Of a stretch of DNA of 54,971 nt, positions 45,004 through 45,240 are shown piece after piece. Numbering within the stretch: the stretch's first letter is position 1; the number at the start of each line of letters is the position of its first letter. Source of the stretch: Chiloscyllium plagiosum. Lineage: Eukaryota. The position numbers and the translations under genes are program-made. The stretch covers positions 20,546,731 through 20,601,701 of the forward strand of contig NC_057719.1 of the NCBI RefSeq assembly GCF_004010195.1, in the 5' to 3' direction. The notes under the pieces are model-generated. The model saw only the letters and a program-made list of their open reading frames with translations. It searched no databases and had not been told where the DNA came from.

Positions 45004-45240
45004 GGAGAAAGTGAGGTCTGCAGATGCTGGAGATCAAAGTTGAAACTTTATTGCTGGAACAGCACAGCAGGTCAGGCAGCATCCAGGGAACAGGAGATTC
45101 GACGTTTCGGGCACAGGCCCTTCTTCAGGAAGGGCCCTTCTTCCTCATTCCTGAAGAAGGGCCTGTGCCCGAAACGTCGAATCTCCTGTTCCCTGGATGC
45201 TGCCTGACCTGCTGTGCTGTTCCAGCAATAAAGTTTCAAC
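45004..45240 (-). mobile_element. Young PLE hairpin mini-element (perfect 93-bp arms 45039-45131/45148-45240)
   Basis: Flanking direct repeat CATTTATTGCAAAAGGA at 44990-45006 and 45240-45256 (a few nt overlap the element ends). Confidence 0.92.
45147..45182 (+). ncRNA. Minimal type-I hammerhead ribozyme motif, best-formed copy (mirror on - strand ~45097-45131)
   Basis: AUUC CUGAAGA A GGGC-cugu-GCCC GAAAC GUC GAAU: 4-bp stem I, 4-bp stem II, GUC triplet. Confidence 0.85.

What the first reader, a model, noticed from the sequence alone, without database searches (positions are those of the whole stretch)
45147..45182. Minimal hammerhead ribozyme motif recurring in more than a dozen loci across the window
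Seen: AUUC-CUGAAGA-A-GGGC(cugu)GCCC-GAAAC-GUC-GAAU fits a type-I hammerhead. Other copies lie at 1583, 1543(-), 12794(-), 16331(-), 26962, 28629, 41344, 42003, 45097(-), 48727, 22216, 27505 and 54467. Among well-preserved copies the variation falls where a hammerhead tolerates it: N7 (CUGAUGA/CUGAAGA/CUGAGGA) and loop II (uuuu, cugu, uuau, ucau, acug). All have one extra A after A9. Known: Penelope-like elements carry minimal hammerheads in their pLTRs, and an extra A at this position occurs in a viroid hammerhead. Inference: at this density the genome could hold a very large number of potential self-cleaving sites, invisible to ORF annotation.
Basis: partly seen in the sequence, partly recalled or inferred. 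Interest (0 to 1): 0.85.

Follow-up and report, generated by a model that had tools for sequence, protein, structure and literature searches.

The report
Penelope-type minimal hammerhead, mass-copied stubs
The motif is a real minimal hammerhead-ribozyme sequence in the end repeat of a Penelope-like jumping gene, a known arrangement; here it sits in one arm of a tiny mirror-image insertion that is predicted to fold into a hairpin and so is likely inactive, and tens of thousands of such stubs in this genome likely start where the element's RNA starts rather than where the ribozyme would cut.

Summary
Confirmed and known in kind. 45147-45182 is a minimal type-I hammerhead (min-HHR) of a Penelope-like element (PLE). 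The genome holds 8,512 exact copies of the 36-mer and 64,742 of a tight family pattern (reversed control 0). [quoted passage not shown] Stems covary across families (8 of 10 pairs; 0/500 shuffles reach the score). The extra base after A9, the palindromic stem III without a loop and dimer-only cleavage were described in 2014 (PMC4209133). Added here: 5' ends pile up just upstream of the core (46 of 103 young arms in 11 nt; 0 at the cut), about 28-30 nt downstream of a TATA-like box in three families, suggesting run-off copies of uncleaved RNA. The scan noted this element and the pile-up before on other pieces of this genome.

The parts
45147..45182 (+). Minimal type-I hammerhead, subfamily C: stem I 45147-45150/45179-45182, CUGAAGA 45151-45157, extra A 45158, stem II 45159-45170, GAAA 45171-45174, palindrome ACGU 45174-45177, predicted cut after C45178
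   Evidence: 8,512 exact genomic copies
45144..45240 (+). Right arm of the insertion: pLTR end piece from just upstream of stem I to the short 3' end (+62 from the predicted cut)
45004..45131 (-). Left, inverted arm: same piece running to the long 3' end (+97, with the 35-nt 'tail'); its hammerhead at 45097-45131 has a 3-bp stem I
   Evidence: (I1: 99 nt, 98% complementary)
45132..45143 (.). 12-nt junction between the arms, partly a re-copied piece of the left arm
   Evidence: reading of the sequence
44990..45006 (+). Left copy of the 17-bp target-site duplication (its last 3 bases also match the arm end)
45240..45256 (+). Right copy of the target-site duplication
44070..45700 (+). Decayed LINE RT region interrupted by the insertion; the peptide reads on across the TSD (CR1-type is a recalled label)
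   Evidence: Pfam RVT_1 at 44070-44516; flank translations and one host-repeat copy without the insert
25555..27058 (+). Longer PLE copy, subfamily B: RT fragment 25555-25917, 914-N assembly gap, pLTR with decayed hammerhead at 26962 and short 3' end
1483..1720 (.). Head-to-head pair, subfamily A, both hammerheads intact (1543-1578 -, 1583-1618 +), 16-bp TSD
   Evidence: (I2)
12776..12960 (.). Head-to-head pair, subfamily B, cut inside the hammerhead (core at 12822 -); outer end approximate
   Evidence: I9
16274..16390 (-). Solo A-type arm; hammerhead with first stem I pair lost; ends approximate
22216..22302 (+). Old family-D arm, G12 lost
27396..27605 (.). Family-D head-to-head pair (cores at 27493 - and 27509 +)
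   Evidence: (I3)
28626..28725 (+). Solo subfamily-B arm starting 3 nt before stem I
30772..30948 (.).
   Evidence: (I4)
34818..34950 (.).
36142..36260 (-).
41245..41435 (.). A-type head-to-head pair (core at 41348 +, G12 lost)
   Evidence: I5
41808..42086 (.). A-type head-to-head pair with longer arms (cores at 41923 - and 42007 +)
   Evidence: I7, I10, I11
48644..48815 (.). A-type head-to-head pair; the + arm starts inside CUGA
   Evidence: (I8)
54467..54559 (+). Old family-D arm, decayed

Best explanation
The motif is the minimal hammerhead of a Penelope-like retrotransposon's end repeat, and this copy is one arm of a short mirror-image insertion that was likely copied from the uncleaved front end of the element's RNA and is predicted to be inactive where it sits. 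Shown by the sequence: the motif lies about 200 nt downstream of an RT + GIY-YIG reading frame in long copies; arms have two fixed 3' ends 35 nt apart; head-to-head pairs use one of each and carry a 14-18 bp TSD; 5' ends crowd just upstream of the core and not at the cut. Inferred: a TATA/initiator promoter in the pLTR starts the RNA 4-12 nt before CUGA; the element's endonuclease nicks both target strands; each nick primes RT at one of the two internal start sites; both cDNAs run off the RNA's 5' end after 95-130 nt and are joined by microhomology. In the active element the ribozyme would cut only as a two-copy dimer through the ACGU palindrome, probably helped by the element's protein (from published work on other PLEs). 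After insertion the stubs decay without selection.
For: RT search hits with the motif downstream on the same strand; RVT_1 and GIY-YIG on L002 (GIY-YIG 21.5 bits, just under the 22.6 cut-off); 21 of 37 tblastn hits to the endonuclease end have an ABC hammerhead downstream within 500 nt, mostly 177-220 nt away. Covariation over 9 natural copies: 93.3% of cells paired, 8 of 10 pairs with two-sided changes, ACGU to AGCU in the palindrome, 0/500 shuffles reach the score, slid controls 16-39% paired. 20 of 20 head-to-head pairs combine a short (+57..65) and a long (+85..102) end; 18 of 20 have a 14-18 bp TSD. 5' ends: 46 of 103 young ABC arms in -36..-26 against 10 in the 64 nt upstream (binomial p 3e-29) and 0 at the cut; family E 21 of 59 in the 13 nt before CUGA against 5 in the 32 nt further up, with TATAAAT 36-40 nt before CUGA in 14 long copies; family D long copy L185 has TATAAA 29 nt before TC-AGTT, whose A is the first stem I base. 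A DNA run shows word depth halving over the same edge. Whole insertion folds at -216.6 kcal/mol with P(stem II)=0. Published: PMC4209133, PMC11167929, PMC3846280, PMC8557442.
Against: No transcription start was observed: the one informative RNA run (single-cell poly-A, 2% read, 1,018 reads laid) gave no place where many molecules begin or end, and 93% of reads ran into flanks on both strands. The ABC upstream box is TTTTAT/TTTATC, not a canonical TATA; initiator motifs are short and common, and their consensus is recalled. Family G has an intact hammerhead and a TATAAA but no strong pile-up: 43 of 49 copies run 60 nt or more upstream; only 4 end near it (8, 14, 14, 16 nt), 3 of them in the predicted window. 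19 of 103 ABC and 17 of 59 E arms end inside the core. No copy with a 5' pLTR before a whole ORF was found among 32 RT loci (many N gaps). The 9 aligned rows are about 5 related families (A/B/C one, E/E2/H one), so the shuffle count is not a probability. In D. virilis the start lies 46 nt plus a 75-nt intron upstream of helix I.
Confidence: 0.7

Rival explanations
1. Same element and ribozyme, but the 5' pile-up is a structural stop: RT stalls at the last helix of the (dimeric) hammerhead, or the cDNA end snaps back on the stem II or TTC..GAA self-complementarity. In the strongest form two RNAs held by the hammerhead dimer are copied at once and give the mirror-image pair.
For: Ends lie at or inside the hammerhead in ABC, D and E; many junctions overlap by 1-13 nt of microhomology; self-priming was proposed for PLE inverted junctions (PMC3846280).
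Against: Solo arms end at the same place; the upper edge follows the TATA-like box (+28 to +30) while its distance to CUGA shifts (about 4 in D, 7 in ABC, 12 in E); 0 of 49 family-G copies end at stem I (the pattern could not see ends past it); RT should meet the 3' stem I strand first, and no excess is seen there; independent RNAs would not give long+short in 20 of 20 pairs.
Confidence: 0.2
2. The dispersed copies are functional self-cleaving sites that cut host pre-mRNAs or release small non-autonomous (retrozyme-like) RNAs at scale.
For: At least about 79,800 exact intact motifs; 117 of 169 ABC core-bearing copies keep all 11 core bases (copies were picked with up to 5 substitutions); copies are transcribed within other RNAs; a few direct tandems exist (L085).
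Against: Monomers were inactive and dimers weak in PMC4209133; the anole PLE hammerhead needed protein and no reads ended at its cut site; CpG positions including G12 decay fastest (80-86% against 93-99%); few close same-strand pairs; no RNA depth step or ends at the cut.
Confidence: 0.07
3. The motif is a chance look-alike in a repeat end (promoter or RT-binding structure) and is not a ribozyme lineage at all.
For: No Rfam hammerhead hit; the 36-mer folds no better than shuffles (z -0.81); the nearest-neighbour model does not prefer the double-hammerhead dimer (-13.1 against -18.3 kcal/mol for the best cofold).
Against: The 11 core bases are invariant across families while all three helices covary; all 83 descriptor hits have the extra base and 82 have no loop 3 although the descriptor allowed either; same architecture cleaves in other PLEs.
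Confidence: 0.03

Closest known systems
Minimal hammerheads (min-HHR) in pLTRs of metazoan Penelope-like elements (Cervera & de la Pena 2014, PMC4209133; read parts 1-2 of 4, supplement table searched)
   Same: Type-I core, no loop 3, palindromic 15.2-16.2, one extra base between 9 and 10.1, G10.1-C11.1, 4-5 bp helix I, several covarying families per genome, mostly solo copies, some pairs on opposite strands.
   Different: Copy number about ten times higher (at least 79,800 exact against about 4,000 in coelacanth and 9,000 in Xenopus); helix II is short (4-5 bp in ABC, D, E); no shark entry found in the passages and the two supplement files searched (one file not searchable).
Poseidon element PAc of Anolis (Frangieh et al. 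2024, PMC11167929; read parts 1-2 of 4)
   Same: Two 3' ends about 35 nt apart downstream of the hammerhead (the RT start sites); both target strands used; uncleaved RNA as template; no RNA ends at the cut site.
   Different: ABC elements have a C-X4-C-XX-C linker between RT and GIY-YIG (Neptune/Nematis type; no tree was built); that paper's read parts do not describe a 5'-end pile-up before the hammerhead.
Inverted-pLTR plus 'tail' insertions of EN+ PLEs (Arkhipova et al. 2013, PMC3846280; Craig et al. 2021, PMC8557442; passages read)
   Same: Head-to-head inverted pLTRs, 30-40 bp tail on one end only, TSD, TATA and Inr-like motifs in the pLTR, heavy 5' truncation.
   Different: Here the whole insertion shrinks to about 200-240 bp with no ORF; TSD is 14-18 bp against 8-10 bp in the rotifer; long+short coupling counted at 20 of 20.
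Non-LTR retrozymes (Li et al. 2026 preprint 10.64898/2026.07.22.740005; part 1 of 5 and passages read)
   Same: Short non-coding, hammerhead-bearing, PLE-pLTR-related repeats; reported in the one chondrichthyan surveyed.
   Different: Retrozymes are head-to-tail tandem units; these copies are solo or head-to-head and match the ends of coding PLEs.

Membership tests
PLE minimal type-I hammerhead | Core CUGANGA...GAAA.UH intact | tested here: met
PLE minimal type-I hammerhead | One unpaired base between A9 and G10.1; G10.1-C11.1 pair | tested here: met
   A45158, G45159-C45170; 83 of 83 hits have the extra base; family G has G.U at 10.1-11.1
PLE minimal type-I hammerhead | Helix III reduced to a palindrome (15.2-16.2 complementary, no loop) | tested here: met
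   ACGU; AGCU in family E; 82 of 83 hits with 0-nt loop
PLE minimal type-I hammerhead | Compensatory changes between families in helices I and II | tested here: met
   about 5 related families
PLE minimal type-I hammerhead | Located in the pLTR of a PLE | tested here: met
   about 200 nt after the GIY-YIG end; subfamily C beside RT copies in L048, L051 (across N gaps)
PLE minimal type-I hammerhead | Self-cleavage after H17 as a dimer | not testable with these tools
   no RNA ends at the site in one weak RNA test
Endonuclease-bearing Penelope-like element | One ORF with RT and C-terminal GIY-YIG | tested here: met
   (GIY-YIG E 2.9e-4, just under the curated cut-off); copies are broken or gapped
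Endonuclease-bearing Penelope-like element | Full-length copy with a pLTR on both sides of the ORF | tested here: inconclusive
   none among 32 RT loci, most 5'-truncated or gapped
Endonuclease-bearing Penelope-like element | Inverted pLTR, 30-40 bp tail on one end, TSD | tested here: met
Neptune clade | CX2-5CxxC linker between RT and endonuclease | tested here: met
   L002, L053, L054 translations; the motif is shared with Nematis
Neptune clade | RT phylogeny groups with Neptune | not tested
Non-LTR retrozyme | Two or more consecutive head-to-tail units each with a hammerhead | tested here: not met
   focal locus is head-to-head; 6 of 153 ABC copies have a same-strand neighbour within 500 nt
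Canonical hammerhead (Rfam families) | Match to an Rfam hammerhead model; helix III with loop | tested here: not met
   no hammerhead family among 29 matches to E=10

The most novel reading that the evidence does not exclude
The PLE promoter is wired so that the hammerhead is the first 30-40 bases of the transcript (in family D the initiator A is the first stem I base), and the genome's hundred thousand or more stubs are strong-stop-like cDNAs of uncleaved RNA, twin-primed from both RT start sites of one molecule. The ribozyme's job would then be to clip off the capped 5' leader, switching an RNA between mRNA and template or circle, and the genome would be a fossil map of PLE transcription starts.
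Probability: 0.45. Interest if true: 0.55.

Novelty: new member of a known kind. Interest (0 to 1): 0.3.

Why it matters
The ribozyme class and its PLE link are published, so the motif is not new. Two things have modest value. The copy number (at least about 79,800 exact, roughly 1.2-2.4 x 10^5 by extrapolation) is about ten times the vertebrate counts in the 2014 paper. And what PLE hammerheads do is an open question; the end statistics point to uncleaved RNA as template and to a start just before the ribozyme, which one 5' RACE or CAGE experiment can test. For the host, most copies are probably inert as ribozymes, though the mirror pairs make long RNA hairpins when read through.

Tried and rejected
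Rfam scan: no hammerhead; hits were miRNA models on the long hairpins. A peak of 5' ends at the cut site (cleaved RNA as template): 0 of 103 young ABC arms, 2 of 59 E arms within 1 nt (in line with the smear around it), 5 of 218 ABC-type arms exactly at it, all in older subfamilies where CpG decay can end an alignment there; rejected, with that small blip noted. Spliced first exon as cause of the edge: truncated copies share no upstream sequence; rejected. Shared reading frame in the tail: B and C are open from an ATG but A1 is shifted by one (read by eye); not pursued. Full-length element: not found. The look-up of sequencing runs listed no holder on record as RNA (no evidence either way); run X23 laid no reads. 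Lunse et al. (RNA Biol 14:1499) is not held by DOI or PMC id: only its title was seen. Searches for shark + Penelope + hammerhead, TATA/strong-stop terms and pLTR/start/inverted/tail terms found no paper describing the 5' pile-up; the library lacks most subscription journals and Repbase/Dfam were not available. Supplements unseen that may bear on novelty: file 1 of PMC4209133 (alignment figures) and those of the 2026 preprint. The 1.25-Mb sample is not random: 455 kb surrounds the window and the 400-kb C1 block was picked after seeing hit lists; it is 1.9-fold richer in the ABC pattern than the genome. Arms ending at an N gap were dropped before counts (10 of 228; 7 of 110 young arms).

Full report
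Observation. The 36-mer is at 45147-45182 (+) with all 11 core bases, a 4-bp stem I, an extra A, a 4-bp stem II closed by G10.1-C11.1, and GAAA-CG-U-C, so stem III has no loop and can form only between two copies through the ACGU palindrome. All 14 named loci belong to the repeat group, but only 4 pass a strict descriptor; the rest are decayed or cut. The window holds more arms than were named. The descriptor gave 83 hits in 1.19 Mb of non-N DNA against 0 reversed and 1 in a Markov control.

Genome. The window is G000:C10:20546731-20601701 in a 3.56-Gb assembly. 'Shark-like' rests on my recall of the repeats and on earlier AI notes, not on a call. Exact counts, each with 0 in the reversed control: focal 36-mer 8,512; ABC pattern 64,742; family E 12,872; D 227 (an old family); G 1,939. 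Extrapolating the descriptor gives 2.4 x 10^5, or about half that after correcting for a sample 1.9-fold rich in ABC.

What carries it. The RT fragment at 25555-25914 (RVT_1) is followed, across a 914-N gap, by the hammerhead at 26962. The same order recurs at other RT loci. L002 has RT, a C-X4-C-XX-C linker and GIY-YIG. In the sample 21 of 37 hits to the endonuclease end have an ABC hammerhead downstream within 500 nt, mostly about 200 nt away. This is the pLTR of an endonuclease-bearing PLE of Neptune/Nematis type (passage in PMC8557442). No copy with both pLTRs was found.

Structure. Nine natural copies from about five families keep the core invariant; 8 of 10 pairs change on both sides, including ACGU to AGCU; 93% of cells pair; slid controls give 16-39%. 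Relatedness inflates the shuffle test. All these traits, the extra base included, are in Cervera & de la Pena 2014, who found monomers inactive and dimers weak.

This locus. It is a single insertion of about 236 bp (45004-45240) in a decayed LINE: an inverted arm with the long end, a 12-nt junction, a forward arm with the short end, and a 17-bp TSD. A read-through RNA folds at -216.6 kcal/mol (z -27) with no predicted stem II. In the sample 20 of 20 same-subfamily head-to-head pairs have one short and one long end and 18 have a 14-18 bp TSD. Inverted pLTRs with a tail on one side are published, and the two ends match RT start sites in the anole PLE, where uncleaved RNA was the main template and the ribozyme needed protein.

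5' ends. Among 103 young ABC arms, 46 begin at -36..-26 from the predicted cut (the first stem I base is -32), 10 in the 64 nt upstream, 19 inside the core and none at the cut. Family E: 21 of 59 begin in the 13 nt before CUGA, 5 in the next 32 nt, and long copies have TATAAAT 36-40 nt before CUGA. Family D: 26 of 30 share 11 nt or less upstream with any other copy, the other 4 only inverted-arm or duplicated sequence by eye; long copy L185 has TATAAA 29 nt before TC-AGTT, L194 has AATAAA at that place, L183 may be a third long copy. ABC has TTTTAT or TTTATC about 30-32 nt before the A. A prediction noted beforehand for family G, whose TATAAA is 50 nt before CUGA, was ends 14-20 nt upstream: of 49 copies, 3 end at 14-16, 1 at 8, none at stem I, and 43 run 60 nt or more. 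That is weak support for a start site, and shows the hammerhead alone does not force a stop. A DNA run, possibly from the same species or sample, halves in depth over the same edge.

Function today. CpG positions, G12 among them, are the least conserved fixed positions among copies (80-86% against mostly 93-99%), as neutral decay predicts. Close same-strand pairs are rare (6 of 153 within 500 nt). In one single-cell RNA run 1,018 reads lay on both strands, 93% ran into flanks, with no end peak; this test is weak.

Mechanism. Shown: anatomy, covariation, end statistics. Inferred: transcription starts just before the hammerhead; two nicks prime RT at the two internal sites; cDNAs run off the uncleaved 5' end and join; dimer cleavage acts only in tandem elements. 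I put 0.95 on the identity as a PLE min-HHR and 0.7 on the whole account.

Novelty. New member of a known kind. The scan already noted the same elements, palindromic stubs and 5' pile-up on other pieces of this genome; I reached my reading before seeing those notes, and they are not independent evidence. What this report adds is the TATA spacing across families, the 20 of 20 long+short count and the family-G test. Three literature searches found no account of the pile-up.

Noticed in passing
window 42931-43168: A ~238-bp imperfect inverted repeat (23-nt plus 68-nt arms, about 90% complementary) unrelated to the PLE; MITE-like by appearance.
   Followed up: no
window 52203-52380: ~178-bp element with 23-nt terminal inverted repeats, TA at both ends and internal TTATCCG-type subrepeats; looks like a Tc1/mariner-type MITE (label recalled).
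   Followed up: no
window 15905-15960: Short palindrome whose arms resemble the PLE long-tail end (CAGCATTTG..GTTTTCAG); possibly a tail-only stub of a related family.
   Followed up: no
window 35380-35445: Decayed arm of family F (tail match); family F lies about 200-490 nt after divergent GIY-YIG ends in two sample loci.
   Followed up: partly
L085:8400-8770 (minus strand): A stub starting at stem I lies directly upstream of a longer subfamily-C copy on the same strand, about 300 nt apart: a natural tandem that could form the double hammerhead.
   Followed up: partly
L203-L248 (family G): A separate PLE family with a 7-bp stem II, extra U, G.U at 10.1-11.1, a strong TATAAA and AC-rich ends; mostly long copies, unlike ABC/D/E.
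   Followed up: partly
window 25918-26831 and many RT loci: Assembly gaps fall inside PLE copies (most of the 32 RT loci examined), so PLE length and copy number are under-assembled.
   Followed up: partly
window 45783-48000: Long decayed LINE copy with endonuclease- and RT-like frames on a strongly G-skewed stretch.
   Followed up: no
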